Source of the DNA: Candidatus Woesearchaeota archaeon CG10_big_fil_rev_8_21_14_0_10_45_16
GTDB taxonomy: Archaea; Nanobdellota; Nanobdellia; Woesearchaeales; GW2011-AR9
DNA: 64,000 nt
Assembly (NCBI GenBank): GCA_002762785.1
Contig: PCXY01000005.1
Coordinates: 188,796 to 252,795, forward strand
Direction: 5' to 3'
Part shown: piece by piece, positions 5 through 14,020 of the stretch
Position numbering within the stretch: the first letter of the stretch is position 1
How the letters are laid out: each line of letters starts with the position of its first letter
Program-made: the position numbers and the translations under genes
The notes under the pieces: generated by a model
Database searches by the model: none
What the model saw: only the letters and a program-made list of their open reading frames with translations
What the model was told of the DNA's origin: nothing

Positions 5-2896
5 ATGTACAAAGATAATCTATTTAAACCTAAAAGGATAGCTTACAGCAGTGTTGTCGGCGACCTTTTCCATTACGGTCATCTTCAGTCTCTTCAATAT
101 GCAAAATCCATATCAGATTATTTTGTTGTTGGCGTGATCACCGACGAAGGGGTTGAATCATACCGGGCCAAGCCCGTAGCTAATTTTGAAGAAAGGAAAG
201 CCGTCATCGAGAACCTACGATGTGTCGACCGGGTGATGGTGCAGAAAACGCGTGATCATACAGAAAACCTGATGAAACTCCATAGCGAGTTTCCGGATGC
301 AGAACTGATCCTGGTGCACGGAGACGATATCGCTGACATCCATGGAAAAGATTATGCTCTTCAGATAGGAGGGAGGGTCGCAGTCCACCCCTATTATAAT
401 CGTCTCTCAACATTTAAGATTATCCAGCATATACTGGAACAGAAAGACAAGATAAAGGATCTTACGACGTTCTCAAGCCTAATACAAAATGAGAGCGCAA
501 GAAAGAATATCCAAAATAAGATCATCATCTCGACGAAAGCGAACACTCTTGACGCCCTCAGGCCTCTTCTCAAACTATCAAGGATAGAAGATCTTTATTT
601 TTTTACGACCAGCGACTGGATGAACAAGAAAGAAAGGATACTAAATACGATCAAGGGAAGGTTCGGGCCGGCGAAGATTGTCATACGGAGTTCAGCGACA
701 AACGAAGACACGTTAGAGTCCGCAAATGCCGGCTGTTATGAAAGTATCCTGAACATAGATTCAACGGACGAATCAGAGATAGAAAAGGGGATTGAAGAAG
801 TTCTTGACTCATACAGGTCAAAGGATGCACAAAGCTCTTTTAATCAGGTCTTGGTACAGAAACAGACGGAAGGTATTATCATGAGCGGAGTCGTCTTCAC
901 AAGAACGCTTGAGTGGAACGCACCATATTATGTCATCAACTATGATGACGTCTCTGGCAGCACCGATTCGGTGACAGCAGGAAGAGAGAGCCAAAGTGTC
1001 TGCATTTCGCATTTCTGTGAAGATGCACCTGATAACATGAAAGATCTCATAAAAGCAGTGAAAGAGATCGAAGAGATGATCCCGGGAATACCTCTCGATA
1101 TTGAGTTCGCTGTCACGCAAAATGGTGAAGTCATTATCTTCCAAGTAAGGCCGCTGGCCACCAATATCAGGAAGAAAAAGAACGATTTTCTGGTGCGCCA
1201 GAAGATTACAGCTTTAAAAGAGAAGTTCAGATCTTTGAGCGTACCTCTGACGCATGTTGAGGGAGAAAAAACTATCTTCGCTGATATGCCGGACTGGAAT
1301 CCTGCCGAAATAATTGGAGACAGGCCAAACCACCTTGATTTTTCTCTTTATGATTACATCATCACTAATAGATCGTGGCATCTGGCCAGGACGTCGCAGG
1401 GCTATTTTGACGTCAAGAAAGCCCCTTTAGTAGAACTCTTCGGTGTCAAGCCATATATTAACGTAAGGTACTCTTTCAACTCATTCACGCCCGCTTCTTT
1501 ACCGAAAAAGACGCGAGAGAAGCTCGTCCAATTTTATCTAGAAAAACTCAAAGAGAACCGTCATCTCCAAGACAAGATAGAATTCGAGATAGCTTTCACC
1601 TGTTACGATTGCTCTTTCCCAGAGAAAATACGAGAGCTTCGAGAACACGATTTCAGTGATGAAGAGATAGAGGAGATAAGGTCTTCTATCCTTGATCTGA
1701 CAAACAGATTAGTCTCCGATGGTTTGAAAGATATCAATGATGATCTTAAGACGGTCTTCTCATTGGAGAAGAGAAGAGAAGAGATTATATCCCCAGCCCC
1801 TAATGTTCCTAATCCTTCCGAGATCATAGGATATGCAAAATTGCTTCTTGACGAATGCCATGAGAAAGGCACCATCCAGTTTTCAAGGCTAGCTCGCCTT
1901 GGATTTATCGGGAAGATCATCCTAAATAGCCTGGTATCAAAAGGAGTGATTACATCCAATCTTTATGATAAAGCTTTTTCATCCATCGAAACTGTGGCGA
2001 CGGTCTTAAGCAATGATTTTGATGGTCTTTGTTCGGGAAATATTTCCAAGAGCGATTTCCTGCGTAAGTATAAACACCTCAGGCCAGGAACCTATGACGT
2101 AACGTCGCCTCGTTATGAAAACAATGACAAGTTACTATCGACATCGGTGGTCTTCAAGGATAATCATAGGAAAGAAAATTTTGTGTTGGATGGAGATGAC
2201 AAAAAGGCTATTGACCAAGAACTTCAACAACACGGTTTTACGTTTGATAGTAGGCATCTCTTCCGTTTCTTTGAGGAAGCGACCAAGGCGCGTGAACTGG
2301 CTAAATTTGAGTTTACAAAAAATCTTTCTGATGCCCTCGAACTGGTGGCTGATGCCGGAAAACTGATGGGTTTTACACGAAAAGAAGTCGCCATGCTTGA
2401 TATCAACGACATCTTCAAGATGAAAAATCAAGATATCACGAAGATGACGGCCGATTGGCAGGATCTGATAAAAGCCAGAGAACAGAAAAGAAATATTGAT
2501 ATGATGCTTGAACTTCCAGCCGTCATAAGAGACGAAGGGGATTTTGATATCGTTACACACTACCTAGCGAAACCAAACTTCATCACCCAAAAGACCATAA
2601 CATCTCCTATCATGAACATCGCCGAGATCGATCACCAGGATGTTCCTAATTTAGCTGGAAAAGTTGTTCTTATTGAGAACGGTGACCCAGGCTACGATTG
2701 GATCTTCACCAAAAATATCGGCGGTCTTATAACTAAGTATGGTGGTGTCGCCTCGCATATGTCTATCCGCTGTGCAGAGTTCGGCGTCCCTGCCGCCATC
2801 GGCTGCGGCAACGTCTTATTCAATAAATTAGTAAAAGCTAATACAGTTACTTTAGATTGCGCGAAACAGATGATAGATATCAGAGGCTTACGATGA
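5..2896 (+). CDS. Tri-domain fusion of an N-terminal TagD-like cytidylyltransferase with a PEP-synthase/PPDK-type ATP-binding domain and a C-terminal PEP-utilising phosphohistidine swivel domain. The PEP/pyruvate TIM-barrel domain is absent.
   Basis: The HxGH motif 'FHYGHL' with 'VVGVITDEG' lies near the N-terminus. The ATP-grasp-like block 'KIVIRSSATNEDTLESANAGCYESI' follows. The C-terminal mobile His domain reads 'GGLITKYGGVASHMSIRCAEFGVPAAIGCG'. The reading frame is continuous for 963 aa. Confidence 0.7.
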   Translation: MYKDNLFKPKRIAYSSVVGDLFHYGHLQSLQYAKSISDYFVVGVITDEGVESYRAKPVANFEERKAVIENLRCVDRVMVQKTRDHTENLMKLHSEFPDAELILVHGDDIADIHGKDYALQIGGRVAVHPYYNRLSTFKIIQHILEQKDKIKDLTTFSSLIQNESARKNIQNKIIISTKANTLDALRPLLKLSRIEDLYFFTTSDWMNKKERILNTIKGRFGPAKIVIRSSATNEDTLESANAGCYESILNIDSTDESEIEKGIEEVLDSYRSKDAQSSFNQVLVQKQTEGIIMSGVVFTRTLEWNAPYYVINYDDVSGSTDSVTAGRESQSVCISHFCEDAPDNMKDLIKAVKEIEEMIPGIPLDIEFAVTQNGEVIIFQVRPLATNIRKKKNDFLVRQKITALKEKFRSLSVPLTHVEGEKTIFADMPDWNPAEIIGDRPNHLDFSLYDYIITNRSWHLARTSQGYFDVKKAPLVELFGVKPYINVRYSFNSFTPASLPKKTREKLVQFYLEKLKENRHLQDKIEFEIAFTCYDCSFPEKIRELREHDFSDEEIEEIRSSILDLTNRLVSDGLKDINDDLKTVFSLEKRREEIISPAPNVPNPSEIIGYAKLLLDECHEKGTIQFSRLARLGFIGKIILNSLVSKGVITSNLYDKAFSSIETVATVLSNDFDGLCSGNISKSDFLRKYKHLRPGTYDVTSPRYENNDKLLSTSVVFKDNHRKENFVLDGDDKKAIDQELQQHGFTFDSRHLFRFFEEATKARELAKFEFTKNLSDALELVADAGKLMGFTRKEVAMLDINDIFKMKNQDITKMTADWQDLIKAREQKRNIDMMLELPAVIRDEGDFDIVTHYLAKPNFITQKTITSPIMNIAEIDHQDVPNLAGKVVLIENGDPGYDWIFTKNIGGLITKYGGVASHMSIRCAEFGVPAAIGCGNVLFNKLVKANTVTLDCAKQMIDIRGLR

Positions 2897-3570
2897 AGAT
2901 CGCTATTTCCCAAAGACAGGACCAGAACAGACACGGAGATTGGGTAGACAGCCTAGAACAAACATATGGAGTGTATTTTCAGCAGTTTGGAATTTCACTG
3001 ATACCGATACCAAATACGACTATCGACGTTGCGTCACTTTTGGATTCTTTAGAAATTGAAGGGATAATCCTTTCCGGCGGGAATGATATCAATCCTGAAA
3101 GTTATGGAGCAGCTAGGAAGGAAGGAATATCTTTAGCCTTAGGACGGGACGAGGTCGAAAGAGAGATGCTCAAGTATGCTCTCGACAAAAATCTCCCTGT
3201 TCTGGGAATCTGTAGAGGGATGCAGTTCATTAATGTTTATTTTAAAGGAAAATTGGTGGATTTTAAAGCGACCGGTTATGAACATCTCCCAAGAATGGAT
3301 CATACAGTGATGATAAAAGAATTCACCGAGTTGAGTGGTTCTAGAGTAAATTCTTTCCATAATTATGGTATCAGAATAAATGATCTGGGGAATGGTTTGA
3401 AGCCATTTGCAATTACAGAAGATGAAAAAACAGTTGAGGGGTTCTACCATTCCTCACGACCGATAGCAGGGATCGTCTGGCATCCTGAACGGCAAAGTCC
3501 TGATCCTGTTTTCAATGAGAAGATCATGAAAGCTTTTGTTTCAGGAGAATTATTCTGGAAGAAAAAGTAA
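2893..3570 (+). CDS. Class I glutamine amidotransferase-like protein of the peptidase C26 / gamma-glutamyl hydrolase family
   Basis: The Cys nucleophile motif 'GICRGMQ' is present, with 'VWHPE' near the C-terminus. The ATG at 2893 overlaps the upstream stop as ATGA; the track start at 2857 is a TTG. Confidence 0.65.
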   Translation: MKIAISQRQDQNRHGDWVDSLEQTYGVYFQQFGISLIPIPNTTIDVASLLDSLEIEGIILSGGNDINPESYGAARKEGISLALGRDEVEREMLKYALDKNLPVLGICRGMQFINVYFKGKLVDFKATGYEHLPRMDHTVMIKEFTELSGSRVNSFHNYGIRINDLGNGLKPFAITEDEKTVEGFYHSSRPIAGIVWHPERQSPDPVFNEKIMKAFVSGELFWKKK

Positions 3571-3581
3571 AAAAAGGAAAA

Positions 3582-4568
3582 CTAACGCAAAAAGCGTAGC
3601 AGAGTTCCTGACGGGATCTCTTGTGGTGAAAGAAGTTTCATCCCGTTGTAACCATCTGTTTCTTGTCTTCTATCAAAATCCATCGTCCGGGCTATCTGCA
3701 TCCTGTCTGCAAATTTTGTTTTATCTGCATCATATTGAACTCTTACTTCAAAGAAGCCGCCTTGGTCAAAGCTGCCCTCGGCATTGGCGTAAAGATCGTT
3801 ACCGTCGTTGCCCATCGGAACACCACGGACAGCGTTGAATAAAGCTTCGATACCAAAAGTGTGGGTTGCGCCCTGCACAACTCTTTGTCGTCCCTCAGAT
3901 AACTTTGGGACCAGATATGCGAGACCTCTCTGAGCAACCTGCTCTGGAGTTTCTTGGATCCTATCGTCTCCTTGATCCATAGCCACGGTCGCTTGATAAC
4001 GGAAACTTCCTGACGGGAATCTTCCTTTGTTTTCGGGGGTGCTTGATTCCACAAACAATTGATTGCCTTCATGATCCTCTACTAACTTACCATCAACATA
4101 GGCAAAAAAAGCAGGTTCTCCTAATGCCGGATGGCCGGCTTTGTCTCCAACAAACGTCAACCTGTATGGCGCGGCAGTAGCTTTGACAGCTGGCGCCATG
4201 GCATGAACACCGTTGATCTTAGCAACCGGAACGCCCCCTTTCAAAAGCTGGGCGTTATTCATCCCGATGTTTACATTACGTATAGTCTCAACGCAACGTA
4301 CTAAAGGAGAAGCAGTATAGAAAACTGTATCCTTTGCTGGATCAAATCCTTCAGGAAGGCTTAAATCTTGAGCATTAAGCCTGATCTCCAGCATAGATTG
4401 TGGTGAGATATGTGCTTCATCATCTGGACTTACACCAGCACCAGCCCAAGCTGTATATTGGCCATCTACTGAAGAAGTCTCCTCTCCAAAATTGACGAAA
4501 TCGCGAGCGCCGTGACGAAAGACACGAAGTACTCGTTCTTCCCAACGGTTAGTATTTACATTTGCCAT
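3582..4568 (-). CDS. Hypothetical protein of 328 aa with no recognisable family, no signal peptide and no TM segment
   Basis: This is a long ORF with coding-like composition. Its GC looks slightly higher than that of its neighbours. Confidence 0.5.
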   Translation of the reverse strand: MANVNTNRWEERVLRVFRHGARDFVNFGEETSSVDGQYTAWAGAGVSPDDEAHISPQSMLEIRLNAQDLSLPEGFDPAKDTVFYTASPLVRCVETIRNVNIGMNNAQLLKGGVPVAKINGVHAMAPAVKATAAPYRLTFVGDKAGHPALGEPAFFAYVDGKLVEDHEGNQLFVESSTPENKGRFPSGSFRYQATVAMDQGDDRIQETPEQVAQRGLAYLVPKLSEGRQRVVQGATHTFGIEALFNAVRGVPMGNDGNDLYANAEGSFDQGGFFEVRVQYDADKTKFADRMQIARTMDFDRRQETDGYNGMKLLSPQEIPSGTLLRFLR

Positions 4569-4698: not shown

Positions 4699-5487
4699 AT
4701 GAAAGCGATAATTCTCGCAGCCGGCATGGGCACCAGATTAGGGAAATATACTGAAAGCCTGCCAAAATGCATGCTCAATTTCAACGGCAAAACCCTTATC
4801 GAGAGACAGGTGGAGACTCTTAGAAAATGCGGAATAACTGATATCACCATTGTCAAAGGATATATGCCAGAGAAGATCGATATACCCAACACTAAAACGT
4901 ACCTCAATTCTGATTATCCAAACACCAACATGGTAGAAACCCTTTTCTGCGCGGAAGCGGAAATGGATGACGACATCCTGATCTGTTACGCTGATATCAT
5001 CTATGAAGAGAAGGTTCTCCAGACGATATTAGATAGTCCATCAGATGTCGGCGTCACCGTCGATGAAGATTATTGGGAATACTGGCAGTCACGAGCGGAT
5101 AACCCCGAGGACGACATGGAAAGCCTCATCATCGAAGATGGCAGGATAGTCGATCTGGGAAATACTAAGTGCACCAGGGAAGACGCGAAAGTGCGTTATG
5201 TTGGCCTTATCAAATTATCAAAAGCCGGCGTTCAAAAGCTACGGGAAGTCTATCATCAGAACAAGATAGATCATTTTCTTAAGAACAAGCCATGGCTGCG
5301 GTCAAAGTCTTTCAAGAAAGCTTATATGACCTGCCTGATCCAGGCCCTTATCAACAGCGGACAGGAAGTGAAGCCGATCACCATCAGAAGAGGCTGGCTG
5401 GAGTTTGATACTGTTGAAGATTATGAGAGATATGTTAGCTGGGCTGATGAAGGAAATCTAGGACGTTTCCTGAGTCTCGACAACTAG
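4699..5487 (+). CDS. LicC-like nucleotidyltransferase, probably a CTP:phospho-alcohol cytidylyltransferase
   Basis: The N-terminal 'MKAIILAAGMGTRLG' motif followed by 'PKCML' is typical of the LicC / sugar-phosphate nucleotidyltransferase fold. Confidence 0.7.
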   Translation: MKAIILAAGMGTRLGKYTESLPKCMLNFNGKTLIERQVETLRKCGITDITIVKGYMPEKIDIPNTKTYLNSDYPNTNMVETLFCAEAEMDDDILICYADIIYEEKVLQTILDSPSDVGVTVDEDYWEYWQSRADNPEDDMESLIIEDGRIVDLGNTKCTREDAKVRYVGLIKLSKAGVQKLREVYHQNKIDHFLKNKPWLRSKSFKKAYMTCLIQALINSGQEVKPITIRRGWLEFDTVEDYERYVSWADEGNLGRFLSLDN

Positions 5488-6234
5488 GGCTTTCTTGTCA
5501 AGTCTCTTCAGGCCGCGGACCGTCGAGTAAAGCTTTCTTAAGAATTCTAAGAAGAACAAGGCTGAGTAGATCAGTGCTAGTTCAACAGGACGGTTGAAGA
5601 TTATCAGGAAAAACAGAAGGTTGAACGGCTGACCCCTTCGCACGATCTCCACAAAAATACGGTTGATGATACTCTTGTTACGGAAAGAGACACTTTCGCT
5701 ATAGACCTTCATGACAACTTCCCGCTTCTCATCTTTGAACCAATAAGGGTTGATGCGTATCAGTTTTTCCAACAGCCAGAAAAGGACTCCTGTCAAAGTA
5801 ATGATCAAGTAGAAGACATTTCCGTTCATTGAAAAATTAGCGATCGCCAAAGCGATAAACACGATAGGCGTGCCGAAGAACAACGCTAACTGCTCCAGGT
5901 AGGAACCAAGCATGCTGAACCGCCCTGTCATCCTGGCAAGGTTACCGTCGACATGATCACCGATGTAGGCGACGAAATTGAATAATATGAGTGCTAGGAT
6001 ATTATACCAATAATCTCCTAATGAAAACAGATATGCTGCCACCAGTTGGAGCATAATCCAAGATGAGGTCACCATGTTAGGTGTTATCGGCGTGCGGGCT
6101 AGTAGAGCTGCCGGATAAAGACTGATCTCCATCCAGAAACGTTGCGAAGGGCTCCAACATTCTTTTCGGCCTTTGGCAAGCATTTCGCCGAAAGTTTTCT
6201 TACCGGTCATCATGGTCCGCAAACGATGGATCAT
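5458..6234 (-). CDS. CDP-alcohol phosphatidyltransferase family membrane protein
   Basis: The family motif 'DHVDGNLAR...G...D' is present along with multiple hydrophobic helices. Confidence 0.7.
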   Translation of the reverse strand: MIHRLRTMMTGKKTFGEMLAKGRKECWSPSQRFWMEISLYPAALLARTPITPNMVTSSWIMLQLVAAYLFSLGDYWYNILALILFNFVAYIGDHVDGNLARMTGRFSMLGSYLEQLALFFGTPIVFIALAIANFSMNGNVFYLIITLTGVLFWLLEKLIRINPYWFKDEKREVVMKVYSESVSFRNKSIINRIFVEIVRRGQPFNLLFFLIIFNRPVELALIYSALFFLEFLRKLYSTVRGLKRLDKKALVVETQETS

Positions 6235-6248
6235 TTATATATTTAACG

Positions 6249-6296
6249 AATTAGAGAATTAGAGAATTAGAGAATTAGAGAATTAGAGAATTAGAG
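6249..6296. repeat. Perfect tandem repeat (AATTAGAG)x6 ending 4 nt before the cmk ATG, in the divergent intergenic region
   Basis: The repeat is read directly from the sequence: 'aattagag' occurs six times with no mismatch. Confidence 0.95.
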
Positions 6297-6300
6297 AGAT

Positions 6301-7083
6301 ATGGCCCAAAACAACAGCTTCTTTTCCACAAGCATTTTAAAGACATCGACAGCACAACTGAGCATGGATATCTTTGATGTCATCACGATCGACGGCTCCT
6401 CATTCACCGGAAAGTCTACCACTGCTAGAGCTCTAGCCAGGATGACCGGCTACCAGCCTTTAAATACCGGAGCGATATATCGAGCTGTAGGGTTCCTGAA
6501 ACAACGGAACAACATCCCTGATGATGATATCCAGCAGATAGTCAAGATGGTGCAGGGTCTTAAAATAAGATATTCCTATGAAAATGAAGCTCCAAAACTG
6601 ATGGTCGATGATGAGGATCTTTCATTTGTCATCAAAGACAGCTCACTGGTGCCTTTAGCGGCGCAAGTAGCCGGGATTCCGGCTGTCCGCGAAGCCCTTC
6701 TACAAATCCAGCGCGACATAGCTGCCAAAGGGAAGTATATTGTCGAGGGACGAGACACTGGAACAATCGTATTCCCTAATGCTCGGTGGAAATTTTTCAT
6801 AGATGCCGATATTGATGTCAAAGTAGCCCGCTTTTTTAAGACACTCTCGGAAGAAGAAAAAAAGAACTATACTTTTGAGCAGGTCAAGAAAATGCTGATT
6901 GAAGTAGACGAGAAAGATCGAGCTAGGAAGGTTGCTCCTCTTCGGCAGGCTGAAGATGCCATCTTTTACGACAACTCAGAGAGTCCGACGCCAGAGCAGG
7001 ATGCGGTTGTTCTTTGGTATCATATAACCCATGCAGCTGAGATCAAGAAAAATTACCCGAATATACTTTCTAGATTGAAATAG
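6301..7083 (+). CDS. cmk: Cytidylate kinase (CMP kinase)
   Basis: The P-loop 'ITIDGSSFTGKST' and overall Cmk-like layout are present. At 260 aa it is somewhat long for this family. Confidence 0.6.
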   Translation: MAQNNSFFSTSILKTSTAQLSMDIFDVITIDGSSFTGKSTTARALARMTGYQPLNTGAIYRAVGFLKQRNNIPDDDIQQIVKMVQGLKIRYSYENEAPKLMVDDEDLSFVIKDSSLVPLAAQVAGIPAVREALLQIQRDIAAKGKYIVEGRDTGTIVFPNARWKFFIDADIDVKVARFFKTLSEEEKKNYTFEQVKKMLIEVDEKDRARKVAPLRQAEDAIFYDNSESPTPEQDAVVLWYHITHAAEIKKNYPNILSRLK

Positions 7084-7141
7084 ATCAATAGCCTGCCTGC
7101 TAAATTCTTTTTGATGGTTTGGTATCCCGCCAACTATCTCT

Positions 7142-8593
7142 TCAGAACTGGAAGTAGAAGAACTGTACTGTCTGGGTCGGGCTGAAGAAGTACAGCAGCA
7201 GACACATCCCCGTGAGATAGATGGTCCATTCAAAATAACCTTTCTGGGCGACGGAAGAGACAAAACCCCTCTTGAAATAAGTCAGAGTATGTATGATCAT
7301 AAATACGATGACGAAAAATAAAGGCACCTGAAACTGCGGCAGGAGGCTGCCAAGCTGGGCTGACCATCCCGAGAAGTCAACAAAGATAAACTTCTTGACC
7401 GCATAGAGGATGTAAGAAGGATCATAGAGGCGGAAGATAAGGAGCGACAACACGAAAAGGTATAATGTGAAGAGGGTCTTGATGAGATTATGAAAACGAG
7501 GGAATGAAGATAATTTAGTCTTTACAGCCAGACGCTGGCGCCAGTCCCGGGTAGCCATGCCGATCAGCAGGAAAACTCCATGTAAAGTTCCCCAAATCAC
7601 GAAGTTCCAGCCAGCGCCGTGCCAGAGGCCGCTAGTAAAATAGACGATAAGGACAGAAATATAAAGCCTAGTCTTGGTGAAACCTTTTCTCATCAGCGGC
7701 ATAAACAGATAATCACGGAACCAGGTTGAGAGAGAGATGTGCCAGCGCTTCCAGAACTCAGCGATCGTCTTGGAGAAGAACGGCTTGTCAAAGTTAAGAG
7801 GGAAATGGAAACCCATGATCCTGGCCAGGCCGATAGCGACGTCAGAATATCCTGAAAAATCGCAATAGACCTGGATGGTGAAAGCGATAGCGCCGACGAT
7901 GATGGGAATACTTCCCGGGTAGGCTGTCGGATCGGCAAAAAAGACGTTGACAAAAGCAGCGATATTGTCAGCGATAACCATCTTCTTGACCAGACCCCAC
8001 ATCACCAAAGCCATGCCGTGCTTGAAGTTTTCTTGGGTGATGGTGATCGGCTTGTCAAGCTGCGGCAGCAGGTCAGAAGCGCGGATGATCGGACCGGCTA
8101 CCAGCTGCGGGAAAAATGAGACGTACAAGGCAAATCTCAGGAAGGAGTCTGTCGGTTTCAGCTTGCGGAAATAGATATCCAGCGTGTAACTCATGGTCTG
8201 GAAGGTGAAGAACGATATCCCGATCGGCAGGATGATGTGGGCTAACGGCAGATGGGGATCATTGCCGAACCAGGAAGCGACCATATTTGTCGTCTTTATA
8301 GCAAAGTTAGTGTACTTAAAGAAAGCCAGGACTCCCAGGTTGCCGATGAGACTGACGGCAAGATACCACTTTCTGTTCTTATCGCTTTTCGAATCATGGA
8401 TAGCTTTCCCACAGAAAAAATCCAGCAAAGAAGAAAACAACAAGAGGACGACCAAAGGGCCGCTTGAAAAATAGTAGAAAAAGTAGCTGGCGAAGAGCAA
8501 GAACAGATACTGGTACTTCCTAGTTTTTACAATCAGAAGGAATAAAAGAACAACAACAGCAAAATAGAGGAAAGGAACGCTGTTAAATAACAT
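7142..8593 (-). CDS. MBOAT family membrane O-acyltransferase of the DltB/AlgI type
   Basis: The conserved His motif 'WHISLSTWFRDYLFMPL' is present in a polytopic protein. The start was trimmed to the 'MLFNSVPFLYF' Met so that it no longer overlaps the upstream gene. Confidence 0.8.
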   Translation of the reverse strand: MLFNSVPFLYFAVVVLLFLLIVKTRKYQYLFLLFASYFFYYFSSGPLVVLLLFSSLLDFFCGKAIHDSKSDKNRKWYLAVSLIGNLGVLAFFKYTNFAIKTTNMVASWFGNDPHLPLAHIILPIGISFFTFQTMSYTLDIYFRKLKPTDSFLRFALYVSFFPQLVAGPIIRASDLLPQLDKPITITQENFKHGMALVMWGLVKKMVIADNIAAFVNVFFADPTAYPGSIPIIVGAIAFTIQVYCDFSGYSDVAIGLARIMGFHFPLNFDKPFFSKTIAEFWKRWHISLSTWFRDYLFMPLMRKGFTKTRLYISVLIVYFTSGLWHGAGWNFVIWGTLHGVFLLIGMATRDWRQRLAVKTKLSSFPRFHNLIKTLFTLYLFVLSLLIFRLYDPSYILYAVKKFIFVDFSGWSAQLGSLLPQFQVPLFFVIVFMIIHTLTYFKRGFVSSVAQKGYFEWTIYLTGMCLLLYFFSPTQTVQFFYFQF

Positions 8594-9551
8594 CGTACTC
8601 ACCCCTGGCGATACGTTCCGATAACAGGCGTGAGCCTTCACGGTTTAGGTGTGTAAGGTCGGTGAAATATTCAGCAGAAAAATCGGTTTCGATGTTGACA
8701 AGCCTGAAGCCGATGATCTCTGACAATCCTTGGATGTAATCATTATACTGCTGAAGAGAATCGGCAGGAACAACGTTAAAGGTAATAGGATTCATCGGCA
8801 TCTGGACGACGACCACTTCGATACCTTCTGCTTTTAAAGAAGCGGTGAGATACGCAAATGCTTCCCTCTCTCTTCGCGGGTGATCACCAAAACTGAATAT
8901 GCCCAAGACTTTTGGATCCTGAAGCTTTTGTTCCAGTTCTTCCGCTGATTGGATATCCTCAAACTGATGGGGATTCTTTAGGTTGTTACCAGCAGGTACA
9001 ACAGCTTCCGAGGAAGAGGACCGGTGCAGGAAACTCAGGAAGTAAGGAAGGATGAATTTTCTTTTGTAAAGAAGACGCTGGAACCTGTTCATGGAGATCA
9101 GTTCCAGTTCGTCGCTATCTAGTCTCTCCAAAAGATAGGAAGAAGGGGTGACGGATGATGACATCAACATGAAGAAATCGTCGTTCTGGTTGATGGTCTC
9201 ATCAAATGATGCAGGAGTGATGCCGATCACGACCTTGCTTGGTCTAGCAGAGATTATCAAATCTTTCTGAAGAGCTACTTGGAACGGCCTCATGCCAGCT
9301 ACGCCTAGGTTGAAGCACGGCGGAGAATCTTTGAGAAGATCCTCGATGACCGTGCAGTCGACATCTTCCCTGATCTGGCTGTCCCCTACAAATAAGATAC
9401 TCCCGTCTGGAACTTCAGCATAAAGATGAAGAACCTCCACGAAATGATTGCCCTGAGCGCCGAACTGAGAGAAATTATAAGCGAAAGAGCAGTAGAGGCC
9501 GGTACTAAGAAGGACTGCCAACAATGGAAAAAACAGATACTTCAGGTTCAT
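8583..9551 (-). CDS. SGNH-hydrolase-like protein of the DltD/AlgX type
   Basis: An N-terminal hydrophobic anchor is followed by block I 'FVGDSQ' and block V 'DLTHLN'. Confidence 0.55.
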   Translation of the reverse strand: MNLKYLFFPLLAVLLSTGLYCSFAYNFSQFGAQGNHFVEVLHLYAEVPDGSILFVGDSQIREDVDCTVIEDLLKDSPPCFNLGVAGMRPFQVALQKDLIISARPSKVVIGITPASFDETINQNDDFFMLMSSSVTPSSYLLERLDSDELELISMNRFQRLLYKRKFILPYFLSFLHRSSSSEAVVPAGNNLKNPHQFEDIQSAEELEQKLQDPKVLGIFSFGDHPRREREAFAYLTASLKAEGIEVVVVQMPMNPITFNVVPADSLQQYNDYIQGLSEIIGFRLVNIETDFSAEYFTDLTHLNREGSRLLSERIARGEYDVI

Positions 9552-9659
9552 GCACCCTCAGGAATGGGGCCGATTTAAATATTTTTAGTTTTTAAAGGTA
9601 GTAACAAAAAAGGACCTTATTTCCTAAAGTTTAAAAAGGGCTGATCAGGTAAAGACAGT

Positions 9660-10103
9660 ATGCTTTTAGACCACATCAATAATCTTAAGAATTATTTTCA
9701 ACTAAACCCCAACCTGAAAGAAGCTCTGGCTTTTCTGCAAAGAGAAGATCTGGGTTCTTTAAGTCCAGGACGGCACGAGATCATGGACGACAAAGTTTTC
9801 GCCATCGTCATCGACTGTGACCAGATGCCGAAAGAGAACACGAAACCGGAAAGACACCGCAAGTATCTTGATCTTCATTACACTATCAAAGGGAATGATC
9901 TAGTCGGCTGGAAACCACTGCATCTCTGTTCTGCCAGCACCGAGTATGATGAACAGGACGACTACCAGCTGTTCAGCAATCTTCCAGAACAGTGGATAGA
10001 TGTGCCTGAAAATCATTTTATCCTTTTCTTCCCAGAAGATGTCCATGCCCCGCTCGCCGGAACTGGTCATCTTAAGAAAGTCGTCGTCAAAGTCAAGATT
10101 TAA
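9660..10103 (+). CDS. YhcH/YjgK/YiaL family protein (DUF386)
   Basis: The 147-aa protein has a YhcH-like beta-sandwich composition with motifs 'HRKYLDLHYTIKGND' and 'FPEDVHAP'. Confidence 0.55.
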   Translation: MLLDHINNLKNYFQLNPNLKEALAFLQREDLGSLSPGRHEIMDDKVFAIVIDCDQMPKENTKPERHRKYLDLHYTIKGNDLVGWKPLHLCSASTEYDEQDDYQLFSNLPEQWIDVPENHFILFFPEDVHAPLAGTGHLKKVVVKVKI

Positions 10104-10126
10104 ATTCATTTAATTTCGATACGCTG

Positions 10127-11227
10127 ATGTCATCAAGATCCAAAAAAATTCTTGGAAACCTGGCCATCTTTATAGTTGGAATTATCATCATCTTCAGTAT
10201 CGCGGAAATCACGGTCAGGGTCTTCAAACAGGATGAACTGGCTCCGGGCCTGTGGCCGGAAGAGAACACCAGATATGTTCCTGAGCTGAAGCGCAACCTT
10301 TACGTCAACATCAGCAATCTTACCAGGTCAACTTCTGAATACAGCTACCAAGTAAGTACTAATGAACAAGGTTTTCGGGACTTTCATCCAATCCTAAAAG
10401 ACGAAGAAACAACAAGGATACTAGGTCTGGGATCTTCTCAAACATTTGGCAACACCGTGGATGCGGACGATACTTACCTCAGCCTTCTAGGTAATGAGCT
10501 AGATGTCGAGACCATTAATCTCGGCCTGGGTGGGATCGGTCTGGATGAGATGAAGATTATCTTGCAGGAGTACGGCTTTTCTTATCAGCCGGACCTTATC
10601 ATCGTTGAGACTAGCTTGGGAAACTTCCAAAGCGGATCTGATTTTGCCCATAAGTCGGAGGCTTCGAGAGAAACTAAGAACAGCGCTTTTTTCTGGCTGT
10701 ATGAACATTCAAAACTGGTGAACCATCTTTATTGGCTGTCAAAGACCACCCATTTAGGAAGCAAGGTGGTAAACACTCTGAAACTAAACGAGCATACTCA
10801 AGACAGCGTCTCTTTTGAGCTCTCTCTTCTCAGGGGTGATGATGATCCCACTTTGTATGAAGCGAAGAAGAGCGTCTTCCGCAATCTTCAGGAGATCAAG
10901 AAGCTGGCTGATGAAAAAGAGGTTCCATTGATGGTTGTTTTTGTCTCTTCATCGTATCAGGTTGAACCAAAAAGGCTTCAAGCTCTCGTTGAAAAGTTTG
11001 GTCTTGCAGAAGAAGATGTCAATCCAGAAAACGCCGAAAATTTTTTCCGTGAAAGCTGTAAAAGGCTGAACATCCCCTTTTTCGAGACCACGGCAGCGCT
11101 CCAGGATCACCAGAAGGGGACTCCAGTTATCTGGAACTTTGACAATCATCTCACGCCAAGAGGTAATCAGATATATGCTTCAGAACTCGCAAAATTTATT
11201 AAAGAACATCATCTAATCGAAAGGTGA
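10127..11227 (+). CDS. Membrane-anchored SGNH/DltD-like protein
   Basis: An N-terminal TM helix is followed by 'ILGLGSSQTFG' and 'INLGLGGIG', which resemble SGNH motifs. Confidence 0.45.
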   Translation: MSSRSKKILGNLAIFIVGIIIIFSIAEITVRVFKQDELAPGLWPEENTRYVPELKRNLYVNISNLTRSTSEYSYQVSTNEQGFRDFHPILKDEETTRILGLGSSQTFGNTVDADDTYLSLLGNELDVETINLGLGGIGLDEMKIILQEYGFSYQPDLIIVETSLGNFQSGSDFAHKSEASRETKNSAFFWLYEHSKLVNHLYWLSKTTHLGSKVVNTLKLNEHTQDSVSFELSLLRGDDDPTLYEAKKSVFRNLQEIKKLADEKEVPLMVVFVSSSYQVEPKRLQALVEKFGLAEEDVNPENAENFFRESCKRLNIPFFETTAALQDHQKGTPVIWNFDNHLTPRGNQIYASELAKFIKEHHLIER

Positions 11228-12228: not shown

Positions 12229-13773
12229 ATGATCAGATTAATCCAAGATTATTTCCAACTGTCAGCAGAACGCTCTCCAAAGAAAGTTGCAGTCGTCTAC
12301 GGTGAAGAGAAGATAACGTACAAAGATCTGGACAAAAAGAGCAACCAGTTGGCTCATCTTATCAGGTCGATCGGCGTGAAGAGAAACGACCGAGTAGCAT
12401 TCTGCCTGCATAAGTCGATCGATGCTATCGTTTCCATCCTTGCCATCTTAAGATCCGACTGCTGTTATGTTCCGATGGACGCTAAATCGCCGGAACAGCG
12501 GCTTCGGTATATCGTTGAAGACTGCCAGCCGGCAGTTATCATCTGCAGTCCCGAGACTCACGTTTCCGTGCAATCTTTAGTAGATGGTTGGATCTCAGGA
12601 AAAAGACCAATAGTGATCGTTCTCGGATCTGAGGAGATTGAGAGACAACAGGTGAGCCTGCCTCCAATAGGAAACATCCAGGATGACCTTGCCTACATCT
12701 TCTATACTTCTGGATCTACTGGGAAGCCGAAAGGAGTGATGATAACTCATGGCAATCTTATCAATTTTGTAGAGTGGGCTGCTGATTGTTTCCAGGTCGC
12801 TGAAGATGATATCATCGCCAACCATGCGCCGCTCCACTTTGACATTTCCGGGTTTGATATCTACGCATCGTTTAAGAAAGGGGCTACTCTAGTGTTAGTG
12901 CCGCCGGAACTTAGTCTATTTCCAGCAAAGATAGTCAACCTCATCGAACAAGAGAAGATCACTATCTGGCAGTCGGTTCCCAGCATCCTGGTGCATATGG
13001 CCAAGATGGGAGCGCTTCAAGAGAACACCATGCCCAGCCTGAAGAAGATCATCTTCATCGGCGAAGTCTTTCCCACACCCTTCCTTATCCGCTGGATGAA
13101 GACCTTCCCGAAGAAAGAATTCATCAACTTTTACGGTCCGACAGAATGCACCATCGGCTGTGCATATTATCCTATCAAAGAGGTTCCAGAGGATTCGACA
13201 ACCGCTATTCCTTTAGGAAGAGCAGCTAAAAACATGGAAATGTTCGCCCTGAAAGAAGATGACAGCCTGGCTAACGTTGGAGAAATAGGTGAGTTATGCA
13301 TCCGAGGGCCGACAGTGAGTCCCGGCTACTGGAACAATAAAGAGAAGACTGAGAAAGCGTTTGTGGTAGATCCGCTATTTCCCCATCTAAATGGAAAAAT
13401 CTATAAAACAGGAGACTTGGTAGAAGCCCTTCCTGAGGAGATGTTCACATTCAGAGGAAGAAAAGACAGCCAGATCAAGTTTATGGGATACCGGATCGAG
13501 CTGGGAGAGATAGAGTCAGCGTTATACTCCCTGGGATATGTTAAAGAAGCTGCAGTCATCTACTTGTCTTCAGATGAGAAAAGTGAGATTGTCGCCTTCG
13601 TGGCTCTAAATCGTGAGAGCAGCCCCGGACAGATAAAAGATGATCTGAAGAAGAAGATCCCTTCCTACATGATCCCCCGGACAATCACTATAAAAGATGC
13701 TCTTCCCCTCAACAGTTCAGGGAAGATAGACCGGGTAAAATTAAGACAGGAGTGCGAGAACGATGGAAACTAA
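12229..13773 (+). CDS. DltA-like adenylation enzyme (AMP-binding, carrier-protein ligase)
   Basis: The adenylation-domain motifs 'YTSGSTGKPKGV', 'YGPTE', 'YKTGD', 'GRKDSQIKFMGYRIELGEIE' and 'SGKIDR' are all present. Confidence 0.8.
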   Translation: MIRLIQDYFQLSAERSPKKVAVVYGEEKITYKDLDKKSNQLAHLIRSIGVKRNDRVAFCLHKSIDAIVSILAILRSDCCYVPMDAKSPEQRLRYIVEDCQPAVIICSPETHVSVQSLVDGWISGKRPIVIVLGSEEIERQQVSLPPIGNIQDDLAYIFYTSGSTGKPKGVMITHGNLINFVEWAADCFQVAEDDIIANHAPLHFDISGFDIYASFKKGATLVLVPPELSLFPAKIVNLIEQEKITIWQSVPSILVHMAKMGALQENTMPSLKKIIFIGEVFPTPFLIRWMKTFPKKEFINFYGPTECTIGCAYYPIKEVPEDSTTAIPLGRAAKNMEMFALKEDDSLANVGEIGELCIRGPTVSPGYWNNKEKTEKAFVVDPLFPHLNGKIYKTGDLVEALPEEMFTFRGRKDSQIKFMGYRIELGEIESALYSLGYVKEAAVIYLSSDEKSEIVAFVALNRESSPGQIKDDLKKKIPSYMIPRTITIKDALPLNSSGKIDRVKLRQECENDGN

Positions 13774-14020
13774 AGAGATAATAATTGATATCATCAAAGA
13801 ATTTAAGCAGAAAGACGAAATCCTGCATCCAGAGGAACTGATCAGCAGTGGTTTCTTTGATTCGTTTGATATCTTTTCATTGATCGAAAAGATTGAGAAG
13901 AGATTTTCTTTGAAACTGGATGGAAACGACATCACTATCGAGAATTTTGAAAACATCAGCACCATCTCGGCTATCGTTGAGAGATCCCTGAAAGGCAAAA
14001 GCGATGAGCAGCAGACCTAA
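13763..14020 (+). CDS. Small DltC-like carrier protein
   Basis: The 85-aa acidic protein carries a putative phosphopantetheine-attachment Ser in 'GFFDSFD'. Its start overlaps the upstream adenylase stop by 11 nt. Confidence 0.6.
   Translation: METKEIIIDIIKEFKQKDEILHPEELISSGFFDSFDIFSLIEKIEKRFSLKLDGNDITIENFENISTISAIVERSLKGKSDEQQT

What the first reader, a model, noticed from the sequence alone, without database searches (positions are those of the whole stretch)
5..2896. Unusual fusion of a cytidylyltransferase with a PEP-synthase-like ATP-binding domain and a phosphohistidine swivel domain
The N-terminal ~140 aa form a TagD-like HxGH cytidylyltransferase. The remainder has the PPDK/PEP-synthase N-terminal nucleotide-binding domain and the C-terminal mobile His domain ('GGVASHMSIRCAEFGVPAAIGCG'), but it lacks the PEP/pyruvate TIM barrel. 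That arrangement is seen in rifampin-phosphotransferase-like small-molecule kinases. A single polypeptide could therefore phosphorylate an alcohol by ATP -> His -> substrate and then cytidylylate it to a CDP-alcohol. That would be a one-enzyme route to the donor for the adjacent CDP-alcohol phosphotransferase. I have not seen this architecture described.
Basis: partly seen in the sequence, partly recalled or inferred. Interest (0 to 1): 0.7.

Follow-up and report, generated by a model that had tools for sequence, protein, structure and literature searches.

The report
Glutamine kinase fused to a cytidylyltransferase
The 963-residue protein is real, but it is most likely not an alcohol kinase: it looks like the glutamine kinase that starts the rare phosphorus-nitrogen (phosphoramidate) sugar-decoration pathway known from Campylobacter, here in a tiny DPANN archaeon and carrying an extra, unexplained nucleotide-transferase domain.

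Summary
ORF 5..2896 (+) is an uninterrupted 963-aa protein. It has an HxGH cytidylyltransferase-fold domain (aa ~9-132), a poorly conserved, low-confidence linker (133-175), and a PPDK_N/ATP-grasp + central + phosphohistidine-swivel kinase body (171-958) with no TIM barrel.

The interpretation needs changing. The kinase body matches NCBIfam PRK05849 end to end (858 bits, cutoff 501), and IMG names fused homologues 'glutamine kinase'. The next gene overlaps by ATGA and best matches the Cj1417 gamma-glutamyl-CDP-amidate hydrolase model. A canonical COG1213 (Cj1416-type) nucleotidyltransferase follows. This order (kinase, GATase, NTase) holds in 21/21 loci with the fusion and mirrors cj1418>cj1417>cj1416. 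In other lineages the kinase is fused to each of the other pathway enzyme families.

So the protein most likely N-phosphorylates L-glutamine via His918 to feed cytidine diphosphoramidate synthesis. The fused HxGH domain is a conserved extra component, not a replacement for the Cj1416-type enzyme, and its substrate is unresolved. The CDP-alcohol phosphotransferase link is weak (5/21 loci, and the signature motif is incomplete here).

I class it as a new variant of a known kind. The fusion is common in databases but I found no description of it in the literature I could search.

The parts
5..2896 (+). Whole ORF, 963 aa: HxGH nucleotidyltransferase domain + linker + glutamine-kinase-family body
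29..400 (+). N-terminal HxGH cytidylyltransferase-fold domain (aa ~9-132); HYGH at nt 71-82
   Evidence: Pfam PF01467 47.2 bits. PDB 5x3d Fom1 CyTase E 3.2e-14 and TM 0.86. In 143 homologues: H23 99%, G25 100%, H26 95%, R64 100%, D75 99%.
401..529 (+). Linker (aa 133-175), low model confidence and low conservation; its first part holds the weak 'LS' remnant of the second cytidylyltransferase motif (S135 96%)
   Evidence: pLDDT below 50 at 133-156 and 159-175. Mean conservation 0.36, against 0.54 for the CT domain and 0.50 for the kinase.
515..2878 (+). Kinase body (aa 171-958): ATP-grasp/PPDK_N part, central helical substrate domain, C-terminal swivel domain; full-length match to NCBIfam PRK05849
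   Evidence: NF004508 858.4 bits, cutoff 501, model positions 7-786 of 789. Foldseek rifampin phosphotransferase E 2.7e-20. Motifs VRSSAxxED, DMPDWNPAEIIG, HLRPGTYD, REx2KFEFTK are invariant in both fused (A1) and unfused (A2) members.
2657..2866 (+). Phosphohistidine swivel domain (aa 885-954); predicted phospho-acceptor His918 at nt 2756-2758
   Evidence: Pfam PF00391 45.9 bits. GGVASHM is present in 142/143 homologues and S-H-M is invariant in unfused kinases.
2893..3570 (+). Class-I glutamine amidotransferase / Peptidase_C26 gene (225 aa), start overlapping the kinase stop by ATGA; predicted gamma-glutamyl-CDP-amidate hydrolase (Cj1417-like); triad C107/H197/E199
   Evidence: (NF045546 111.9 bits, E 4e-32; next best family E 3e-13; below cutoff 250). 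Directly downstream in 21/21 fusion loci.
4699..5487 (+). COG1213/LicC-type nucleotidyltransferase (262 aa) with canonical AAGMGTRL...PK loop; positional and family counterpart of Cj1416 (CTP:phosphoglutamine cytidylyltransferase)
   Evidence: LicC 1jyk E 1.4e-14; 21/21 loci; one orthologue group across classes; canonical loop 22/22. Cj1416 = COG1213 per PMC12275187.
3582..4568 (-). 328-aa protein of no known family, between GATase and NTase on the opposite strand; has an RHG motif ('RVFRHGARD'); membership of the system uncertain
   Evidence: no Pfam/NCBIfam hit. A homologue sits at the same position in L038.
5458..6234 (-). CDP-OH_P_transf-like membrane protein with incomplete signature (DxxDGxxARx8Gx3E x3 L); possible transferase, not a conserved partner
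   Evidence: Pfam 35.5 bits. Present in 5/21 fusion loci. Motif check.

Best explanation
The ORF encodes an L-glutamine kinase of the Cj1418 family with an extra N-terminal HxGH nucleotidyltransferase domain. With the next gene (Cj1417-like amidohydrolase, translationally coupled) and the COG1213 nucleotidyltransferase at 4699-5487 (Cj1416-like), it forms the conserved three-gene core that makes cytidine diphosphoramidate, the donor of phosphoramidate (P-N) groups for decorating surface glycans. The mechanism is inferred from the characterised Campylobacter enzymes. The ATP-grasp part transfers phosphate from ATP to His918 on the swivel domain. [quoted passage not shown] A cytidylyltransferase joins this to CMP from CTP, giving CDP-L-glutamine. 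The amidohydrolase (Cys107) releases glutamate and leaves CDP-amidate. The fused HxGH domain is an accessory fifth component, not the Cj1416 replacement. It is under purifying selection with its NTP-binding HxGH motif intact. I think it most likely carries out a second, distinct CTP- (or ATP-) dependent nucleotidyl transfer in the same decoration pathway. This would resemble HldE or Fom1, where a fused HxGH domain acts on a later intermediate rather than on the partner domain's direct product. Shown here: architecture, family membership, synteny, motif conservation. Inferred: all chemistry. Rough split: kinase and pathway assignment about 0.8; 'distinct second nucleotidyl transfer' for the CT domain about 0.45.
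For: Kinase identity: NF004508/PRK05849 equivalog 858 bits vs cutoff 501, full length. IMG names fused homologues P0026, P0030, P0047, P0056 and P0060 'glutamine kinase'. Fold is ATP-grasp + swivel His without barrel. His918 is present in 142/143 homologues. Central-domain motifs are identical in fused and unfused members.

Pathway: the GATase overlaps by ATGA, and its only strong NCBIfam hit is the Cj1417-based model (E 4e-32). Its 112 bits falls in the same 86-134-bit range as GATases of every class. The order kinase > GATase > COG1213 NTase holds in 21/21 CT-fusion loci, 20/21 NTase-like-fusion loci and 28/42 unfused loci, with an APS-kinase-like gene in 21/42 unfused loci. That equals cj1418>cj1417>cj1416>cj1415 (PMC3907429; pathway summarised in PMC11800397; Cj1416 = COG1213 in PMC12275187).

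Rosetta-stone network: the kinase is fused elsewhere to a COG1213-like domain (54 proteins), an APS-kinase-like domain (2), a GATase (2), and APS-kinase + CT (2).

CT domain is accessory, not a replacement: stand-alone NTases keep the canonical G-loop in 22/22 CT loci and form one orthologue group tracking the kinase tree. Close relatives L011, L021 and L023 lack the CT but keep everything else. The CT domain is as conserved as the kinase (0.54 vs 0.50), with H23 99%, G25 100%, H26 95%.
Against: No direct alignment to Cj1418, Cj1417 or Cj1416 could be made, because Campylobacter was not among the 80 loci returned and the primary papers are not held. The GATase is below the curated equivalog cutoff (112 vs 250). 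No Cj1415-type kinase lies near the window: the upstream APS kinase-CysQ fusion is a canonical CysC type. No homologues of the Campylobacter transferases or methyltransferases Cj1419-1422 were sought or found. No phosphoramidate has been reported chemically from any archaeon, as far as the searchable literature shows. For the CT domain, fusion partners often catalyse consecutive steps, which favours phosphoglutamine as its substrate. The second cytidylyltransferase motif (RTxGISTT) is reduced to 'LS' and lies in a low-confidence region. The positionally equivalent NTase-like add-on of another class has lost its NTP loop (0/20), which hints at a non-catalytic role.
Confidence: 0.6

Rival explanations
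1. One-polypeptide route to CDP-L-glutamine: the fused HxGH domain is itself the phosphoglutamine cytidylyltransferase and takes the labile N5-phosphoglutamine directly from the kinase. The neighbouring COG1213 enzyme has drifted to another substrate or is redundant.
For: The domains are fused in 143 homologues with an intact HxGH motif. From general knowledge, fused metabolic domains commonly catalyse consecutive steps. Phosphoglutamine is the only known product of this kinase family, and its only known consumer is a cytidylyltransferase (PMC11800397). Triple APS-kinase-CT-kinase fusions would then hold three of the four pathway steps.
Against: A catalytically canonical COG1213 NTase is retained next to the fusion in 21/21 loci. 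It belongs to the same orthologue group as in unfused, Campylobacter-like operons, where it is the only NTase. Retention of a redundant enzyme in every locus is unexpected. Relatives that lost the CT domain keep the rest unchanged (L011, L021, L023).
Confidence: 0.2
2. The N-terminal domain is a nucleotide-sensing or scaffolding module: it binds CTP or CDP-amidate and gates the kinase, or docks the next enzyme, and does no chemistry of its own.
For: A second, unrelated nucleotide-binding fold (COG1213-like) has been recruited to the same N-terminal position in another large class, and there it has lost the NTP-binding Gly loop in 0/20 cases retained or is truncated (Vibrio plasmid). The CT domain's second catalytic motif is degenerate. 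The domain is dispensable in close relatives.
Against: Both HxGH histidines, R64 and D75 are 95-100% conserved, and the domain is more conserved than the kinase body. That is what is expected of an active site, although binding alone could also demand it.
Confidence: 0.15
3. One reading: a rifampin-phosphotransferase-like kinase phosphorylates an alcohol (glycerol, ribitol, choline), the fused domain makes the CDP-alcohol, and the adjacent CDP-alcohol phosphotransferase uses it.
For: The overall fold is closest to rifampin phosphotransferase among solved structures. The CT domain resembles TagD, ECT and Fom1 CyTase. A CDP-OH_P_transf-like gene lies 2.5 kb downstream, and a Dlt-like gene set nearby could suggest a teichoic-acid-like polymer.
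Against: The kinase body is a full-length member of the PRK05849 / 'glutamine kinase' family, not RPH (RPH equivalog 24.9 bits vs cutoff 999). The invariant partners are an amidohydrolase and a COG1213 NTase, which an alcohol route does not need. CDP-OH_P_transf is present in only 5/21 fusion loci, and the window's copy lacks the fourth signature Asp. The TagD equivalog scores 40 bits vs cutoff 165.
Confidence: 0.05

Closest known systems
[quoted passage not shown]
   Same: PPDK_N/ATP-grasp + central + swivel-His architecture without TIM barrel. Full-length match to the PRK05849 family model. Followed by a Cj1417-like GATase and a Cj1416-type COG1213 NTase in the same gene order (PMC3907429, PMC11800397).
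   Different: Carries an extra ~165-aa N-terminal HxGH nucleotidyltransferase domain. Found in a DPANN archaeon. No Cj1415-type kinase and no recognised Cj1419-1422 counterparts nearby. Identity to Cj1418 itself was not measured.
Cj1416, CTP:phosphoglutamine cytidylyltransferase (COG1213/LicC family)
   Same: It performs the reaction one might assign to the fused domain. Its family counterpart is the separate gene at 4699-5487.
   Different: The fused domain has a different fold family (HxGH, PF01467), so at most it would be a non-orthologous analogue. The real family counterpart is retained alongside it (PMC12275187).
Fom1 of Streptomyces wedmorensis (CyTase domain fused to PEP mutase; PDB 5x3d)
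   Same: Closest solved relative of the N-domain (55 bits, 31% identity, TM 0.86). It is likewise an HxGH cytidylyltransferase fused N-terminally to a phosphoryl-transfer enzyme of an unusual phosphorus pathway. From my own knowledge, it acts on a later intermediate (hydroxyethylphosphonate), not on its partner domain's direct product.
   Different: The partner domain is a PEP mutase (C-P bond), not a swivel-His kinase (P-N bond). Substrate identity here is unknown.
HldE/RfaE (heptose kinase fused to HxGH heptose-1-phosphate adenylyltransferase)
   Same: A kinase + HxGH nucleotidyltransferase fusion. The best NCBIfam domain-level hit of the N-domain is rfaE_dom_II (62.5 bits). From my own knowledge, the two HldE domains catalyse non-consecutive steps separated by a phosphatase.
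   Different: Score is below the equivalog cutoff (181.5). The HldE kinase is a ribokinase-fold enzyme and the domain order is reversed.
Rifampin phosphotransferase (RPH-Lm, PDB 5hv1/5fbs)
   Same: Best whole-chain structural match (E 2.7e-20). Same ATP-grasp + substrate domain + swivel His logic, ATP to His to substrate.
   Different: Only 13-14% identity. The NCBIfam RPH equivalogs score 16-25 bits against cutoffs of 999-1700. The genomic context is glycan decoration, not antibiotic resistance.
Predicted MeOPN-type cluster of Borg elements (bioRxiv 10.1101/2024.11.05.622173)
   Same: An archaeal-associated set of glutamine kinase, CDP-glutamine hydrolase and two nucleotidyltransferases, inferred in silico.
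   Different: The kinase there is a separate gene. The second NTase is fused to PEP mutase, not to the kinase, and is of the COG1213 type as described.

Membership tests
L-glutamine kinase family (Cj1418; NCBIfam NF004508/PRK05849) | Full-length match above the curated family cutoff | tested here: met
   858.4 bits vs 501; aa 171-958 on model positions 7-786 of 789
L-glutamine kinase family (Cj1418; NCBIfam NF004508/PRK05849) | ATP-grasp (PPDK_N) + central domain + C-terminal phosphohistidine swivel domain, no PEP/pyruvate TIM barrel | tested here: met
   Pfam hits and absence of PEP-utilizers_C; AF2 model and Foldseek
L-glutamine kinase family (Cj1418; NCBIfam NF004508/PRK05849) | Conserved phospho-acceptor His in the GGxxSH motif | tested here: met
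   His918; present in 142/143 fused homologues and invariant in 24 unfused ones
L-glutamine kinase family (Cj1418; NCBIfam NF004508/PRK05849) | Operon with Cj1417-type amidohydrolase and Cj1416-type COG1213 NTase, in that order | tested here: met
   Window genes 2893-3570 and 4699-5487; 21/21 fusion loci; order in Campylobacter from PMC3907429
L-glutamine kinase family (Cj1418; NCBIfam NF004508/PRK05849) | Direct sequence similarity to the characterised Cj1418 protein | not tested
Indirect link only, through the IMG product name 'glutamine kinase' on fused homologues.
L-glutamine kinase family (Cj1418; NCBIfam NF004508/PRK05849) | [quoted passage not shown] | not testable with these tools
   Needs an enzyme assay
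Complete Campylobacter-type MeOPN donor pathway (Cj1415-Cj1418) | Dedicated APS-kinase-like cytidine diphosphoramidate 3'-kinase (Cj1415 type) in the locus | tested here: not met
   The only nearby APS kinase (L001:7442-8764, fused to CysQ) is a canonical CysC type: TIGR00455 189.5 > 138.7, PRK05541 106.6 < 127. None is in the window.
gamma-glutamyl-CDP-amidate hydrolase (Cj1417; NCBIfam NF045546) - neighbour gene | Score above equivalog cutoff; Cys-His-Glu triad | tested here: inconclusive
   111.9 bits < 250, but it is the sole strong hit (E 4e-32) over model positions 3-194 of 198. All syntenic GATases of every class score 86-134 bits. Triad C107/H197/E199 is present.
HxGH cytidylyltransferase superfamily (Pfam PF01467; TagD/ECT/CCT/Fom1 CyTase) | Pfam match above gathering score, HxGH motif, Rossmann-like fold | tested here: met
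   47.2 bits vs 21; HYGH at aa 23-26; TM 0.86 to 5x3d
HxGH cytidylyltransferase superfamily (Pfam PF01467; TagD/ECT/CCT/Fom1 CyTase) | Second signature motif RTxGISTT | tested here: inconclusive
   Only 'YYxxLS' remains (Y131 94%, L134 95%, S135 96%), and the region has pLDDT below 50. Fom1 aligns 'PYTPGISS' to this stretch.
Glycerol-3-phosphate cytidylyltransferase TagD (TIGR01518) / RfaE domain II (TIGR02199) | Equivalog cutoff | tested here: not met
   40.4 vs 165.4 and 62.5 vs 181.5 bits
Rifampin phosphotransferase (NF041857 / NF000283) | Equivalog cutoff | tested here: not met
   24.9 vs 999 and 15.6 vs 1700 bits. There is fold resemblance only.
PEP synthase / PPDK | C-terminal PEP/pyruvate-binding TIM barrel | tested here: not met
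   No PEP-utilizers_C hit. PEP synthase models match only the swivel domain, at 50-58 bits against cutoffs of 598-883.
CDP-alcohol phosphatidyltransferase (PF01066) - neighbour 5458-6234 | Signature D-x2-D-G-x2-A-R-x8-G-x3-D-x3-D | tested here: not met
   The window protein reads DHVDGNLAR-x8-G-x3-E-x3-L. Only 4 of 11 related proteins have the full motif. Pfam 35.5 bits > 22.

The most novel reading that the evidence does not exclude
The fused HxGH domain marks a fifth, uncharacterised enzymatic step in a phosphoramidate-donor pathway that is far more widespread than thought (matches in at least 588 species-representative genomes, bacterial and archaeal). In the large clade that carries it (DPANN and other archaea, Lachnospiraceae, Bacteroidales, Gastranaerophilales, Synergistaceae), dedicated Cj1415-type 3'-kinases are rarely nearby. 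The domain may therefore create an alternative activated P-N donor or a second CDP-linked head group, giving these organisms a chemically new P-N-containing surface decoration.
Probability: 0.3. Interest if true: 0.75.

Novelty: new variant of a known kind. Interest (0 to 1): 0.55.

Why it matters
Biological P-N bonds are rare, and a 2022 review still calls the glutamine kinase 'C. jejuni-specific' (PMC9561416). This window shows the same three-gene core in a genome-reduced DPANN archaeon. The follow-up shows it in hundreds of species across many phyla, under generic database names such as 'PEP-utilizing enzyme'. Phosphoramidate decoration of cell surfaces may therefore be a common but overlooked trait, relevant to host-symbiont recognition in DPANN and to gut Firmicutes and Bacteroidota. 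The set of fusions (kinase joined to each other pathway enzyme family) gives independent genomic support for the Campylobacter pathway. It also singles out the HxGH domain, and a formyltransferase-like gene pair, as candidate missing components. The steps after CDP-amidate are still unassigned even in Campylobacter (PMC11800397). The fused enzyme is a compact, expressible target for testing how the P-N donor is made and used.

Tried and rejected
1. The primary Raushel-lab papers (PMC5629633, PMC5938751, PMC6643271, PMC5938747) are not held. I used later open-access summaries instead.

2. I tried to fetch the Campylobacter locus for direct alignment with a kinase-only profile scan of genome contigs.

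3. A literature search for PRK05849/NF004508 found nothing.

4. PDB sequence searches found no solved Cj1416, Cj1417 or Cj1418 relatives closer than generic family members.

5. The apparent stand-alone HxGH CT genes next to unfused kinases (L012, L017, L034) turned out to be the same fusion split by a frameshift or an N-gap. I rejected them as evidence for a free-standing CT.

6. I considered that the CT domain substitutes for the APS-kinase step. APS-kinase-like genes are rarer near the add-on classes. However, triple APS-kinase-CT-kinase fusions and L012 carry both, so they are not simple alternatives.

7. Blast single-linkage clustering merged APS kinases with a formyltransferase-like family through multidomain proteins. 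I separated them by hand.

8. I searched the window for APS-kinase-like or formyltransferase-like genes and found none.

9. I considered the bacterial-type cmk at 6301-7083 as a Cj1415 substitute. It passes the cmk equivalog cutoff (164 > 135.6), so I treat it as a CMP kinase, possibly recycling CMP.


Full report
**Observation.** The window holds an uninterrupted ORF at 5..2896 on the + strand, 963 aa long. An identical protein is recorded from an NCBI MAG of a Candidatus Woesearchaeota archaeon (COV20_03995), a JGI metagenome and an independent Logan assembly. The fusion is therefore not an assembly artefact.

Pfam finds three domains, all above their gathering scores, and no PEP/pyruvate TIM barrel:
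- CTP_transf_like, aa 20-111
- PPDK_N
- PEP-utilizers, aa 885-954

HYGH lies at aa 23-26.

An AlphaFold2 model built on 29 homologues is confident (pLDDT 83.8, pTM 0.75), except for aa 133-175 between the two parts. Against the PDB, the kinase body best matches rifampin phosphotransferase (E 2.7e-20). The N-domain matches the cytidylyltransferase domain of Fom1 (TM 0.86, rmsd 2.1 A, 31% identity) (sequence-level match).

**What the kinase is.** NCBIfam places aa 171-958 in the PRK05849 equivalog over its whole length (858 bits, cutoff 501). Rifampin phosphotransferase and PEP synthase models match only the swivel domain, at a few tens of bits. IMG labels several fused homologues 'glutamine kinase'.

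The characterised glutamine kinase is Cj1418 of Campylobacter jejuni. With Cj1416, Cj1417 and Cj1415 it makes CDP-phosphoramidate 3'-phosphate from glutamine, ATP and CTP (PMC11800397; PMC6429109). [quoted passage not shown]

The neighbours fit that pathway:
- **Next gene (2893-3570).** It overlaps the kinase stop by ATGA. It is a class-I amidotransferase with an intact Cys-His-Glu triad. Its only strong NCBIfam hit is the Cj1417-based gamma-glutamyl-CDP-amidate hydrolase model (E 4e-32). The score is below the narrow curated cutoff, but it lies in the same 86-134-bit range as the syntenic amidotransferases of every class I sampled.
- **Gene at 4699-5487.** It is a COG1213/LicC-type nucleotidyltransferase with a canonical NTP loop. 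This is the family to which Cj1416 belongs (PMC12275187).

**Comparative evidence.** A whole-library search with the kinase part finds 1,547 cluster representatives at E <= 1e-30. A profile scan of species-representative genomes finds at least 588 matches in many bacterial and archaeal phyla. I called ORFs in 86 non-redundant loci and searched them with family HMMs built from the window's genes.

| Kinase class | Loci | GATase directly downstream | Separate COG1213 NTase | APS-kinase-like gene within 6 kb |
|---|---|---|---|---|
| HxGH-CT fusion | 21 | 21/21 | 21/21 | 2/20, plus 1 fused |
| COG1213-like add-on fusion | 21 | 21/21 | 20/21 | 3/21 |
| Unfused | 42 | 31/42 | 28/42 | 21/42 |

The operon-linked APS-kinase-like genes that I scanned mostly fall in the PRK05541 subfamily. 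The order kinase, GATase, NTase, APS-kinase equals cj1418, cj1417, cj1416, cj1415 (PMC3907429).

Among the 150 best representatives, the kinase is also found fused to a COG1213-like domain (54), an APS-kinase-like domain (2) and a GATase (2). Two further proteins, from the homologue search, have the order APS-kinase, CT, kinase. These fusions tie the family to exactly the enzyme families of the Campylobacter pathway. The central-domain motifs are invariant in both fused and unfused members, which argues for the same substrate throughout.

**The fused HxGH domain.** It is not the Cj1416 counterpart, because it belongs to a different fold family. It has not displaced that enzyme either:
- The stand-alone NTase is retained with a canonical catalytic loop in 22/22 fusion loci.
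- The stand-alone NTases of all classes form one group that tracks the kinase tree.
- The CT-fused kinases cluster together in the kinase tree, mixing archaea (Woesearchaeota, Altiarchaeales, Methanosarcinales-labelled MAGs) with bacteria (Lachnospiraceae, Bacteroidales, Gastranaerophilales, Clostridia, Synergistaceae). A few secondarily unfused members (L011, L021, L023) sit among them. This pattern fits a single origin followed by horizontal spread.

Across 143 fused proteins the domain is at least as conserved as the kinase (0.54 vs 0.50, linker 0.36). H23 is present in 99%, G25 in 100%, H26 in 95%, R64 in 100% and D75 in 99%. The second classical motif is reduced to 'LS'.

I therefore read the domain as a selected, probably catalytic, accessory component. 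Three readings remain:
- **A distinct second nucleotidyl transfer in the same decoration pathway (favoured).** From my own knowledge, HldE and Fom1 are precedents in which a fused HxGH domain acts on a later intermediate.
- **Direct cytidylylation of phosphoglutamine.** This is disfavoured by the universal retention of the intact Cj1416-type enzyme.
- **A nucleotide sensor or scaffold.** This is suggested by the other class, where the positionally equivalent COG1213-like add-on has lost its NTP loop in all 20 cases (0/20 retain it).

Dedicated Cj1415-type kinases are rare near the add-on classes. The APS kinases near L001, L017 and L038 are canonical CysC enzymes linked to sulfate activation. 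Triple fusions and L012 carry both an APS-kinase-like part and the CT, so the CT is not a simple substitute.

The idea of an alcohol kinase feeding a CDP-alcohol to the adjacent CDP-alcohol phosphotransferase is not supported. That gene is within 6 kb in only 5/21 fusion loci. In the window it lacks the fourth Asp of the family signature.

A weaker form survives as speculation. CDP-amidate has CMP as a leaving group, so CDP-X-type transferases could pass on the phosphoramidate directly. Candidates are this CDP-OH_P_transf-like protein, or the TagF-like gene that follows the core on a Vibrio alfacsensis plasmid.

**Novelty.** I found no paper that describes the fusion. The nearest is a preprint that infers separate MeOPN-type genes on Borg elements. 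Curated annotation calls the family only 'PEP-utilizing enzyme' or 'PEP/pyruvate-binding domain-containing protein'. The architecture is common in databases, so it is not a rarity. It is a new variant of a known system with one unexplained part, and it points to a much wider distribution of the P-N pathway than the literature states (PMC9561416).

**Limits.** No direct alignment to the Campylobacter proteins was possible. All chemistry is inferred. Neighbourhood statistics cover only +-6 kb (up to +-10 kb for the first loci). The 80 scanned genomes are those most similar to the kinase-only profile query, not a random sample.

Noticed in passing
window 7142-9551 (-), 12229-14020 (+): A Dlt-like gene set in a DPANN archaeon: MBOAT (DltB-like, 7142-8641), DltD-like (8583-9551), an amino-acid adenylation enzyme closest to DltA (12229-13773; 358 bits, below the 476 cutoff) and an 85-aa ORF (13763-14020) that could be a carrier protein but has no family hit. 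It suggests aminoacylation of a surface polymer.
   Followed up: partly
window 18842-20017 (+): A second unusual HxGH fusion in the same window: a cytidylyl/adenylyltransferase domain (rfaE_dom_II 75.6 bits, TagD model 71.5 bits) fused to a PMM/HAD-IIB phosphatase-like domain (391 aa).
   Followed up: partly
window 3582-4568 (-): A 328-aa protein with no Pfam or NCBIfam hit, an RHG motif ('RVFRHGARD') reminiscent of histidine phosphatases, and an Ala/Gly/Arg-rich composition unlike its neighbours. A homologue sits at the same position (between GATase and NTase, opposite strand) in L038.
   Followed up: partly
L006:14374-15794, L007:16239-17668, L032:4669-5945, L064, L065, L072; fused in L011:4152-5477, L019, L021, L056, L086: A recurrent tandem pair (or ~445-aa fusion) of ~200-240-aa proteins with an 'HVHPGxLPxYRG' motif and only faint similarity to the formyltransferase N-domain (E 0.0055). 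It often lies beside the APS-kinase-like gene in glutamine-kinase loci of all classes. It is a candidate unrecognised pathway component and is absent from the window.
   Followed up: partly
L001:2395-4647 (upstream of the window on the source contig) and L038:10630-12873: A ~750-aa fusion of a pyruvate-kinase barrel domain with PUA_2 + ATP-sulfurylase. It lies next to sulfotransferases and an APS kinase-CysQ fusion (L001:7442-8764). Sulfate-activation genes (Sat or CysDN) accompany the glutamine-kinase core in several loci (L001, L006, L007, L009, L011, L092).
   Followed up: partly
window 6301-7083 (+): A bacterial-type CMP kinase (TIGR00017 164 bits > 135.6 cutoff; the archaeal cmk model scores only 22.6) with a 26-aa N-terminal extension, sitting inside the CDP-dependent cluster of an archaeon. 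It may recycle the CMP released by CDP-X transferases.
   Followed up: no
L036, L039, L040, L043, L044, L047, L048, L058 (mostly Lachnospiraceae and other gut Clostridia MAGs): A group of unfused kinases (~785-810 aa), sister to the bacterial CT-fused group, that lack the GATase and NTase neighbours. They share a different conserved neighbourhood (blast clusters 19-37) and may have a different substrate or role.
   Followed up: no
MT837632.1 (hit H15), human faecal 'Bacteriophage sp.' contig of 9.5 kb: It encodes a full-length relative of the kinase (37.7% identity, 99% coverage). The record is unannotated, so it is unclear whether it is truly viral.
   Followed up: no
L092 (Vibrio alfacsensis plasmid pYa108, NZ_AP024168.1) 5461-11036: A plasmid-borne core in a cultured bacterium: add-on-kinase (NTase-like domain lacking its Gly loop), GATase, NTase, then a TagF-like 'CDP-glycerol glycerophosphotransferase family protein', with cysDN upstream. 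It is a tractable system for testing whether CDP-amidate is used directly by a TagF-like transferase.
   Followed up: partly
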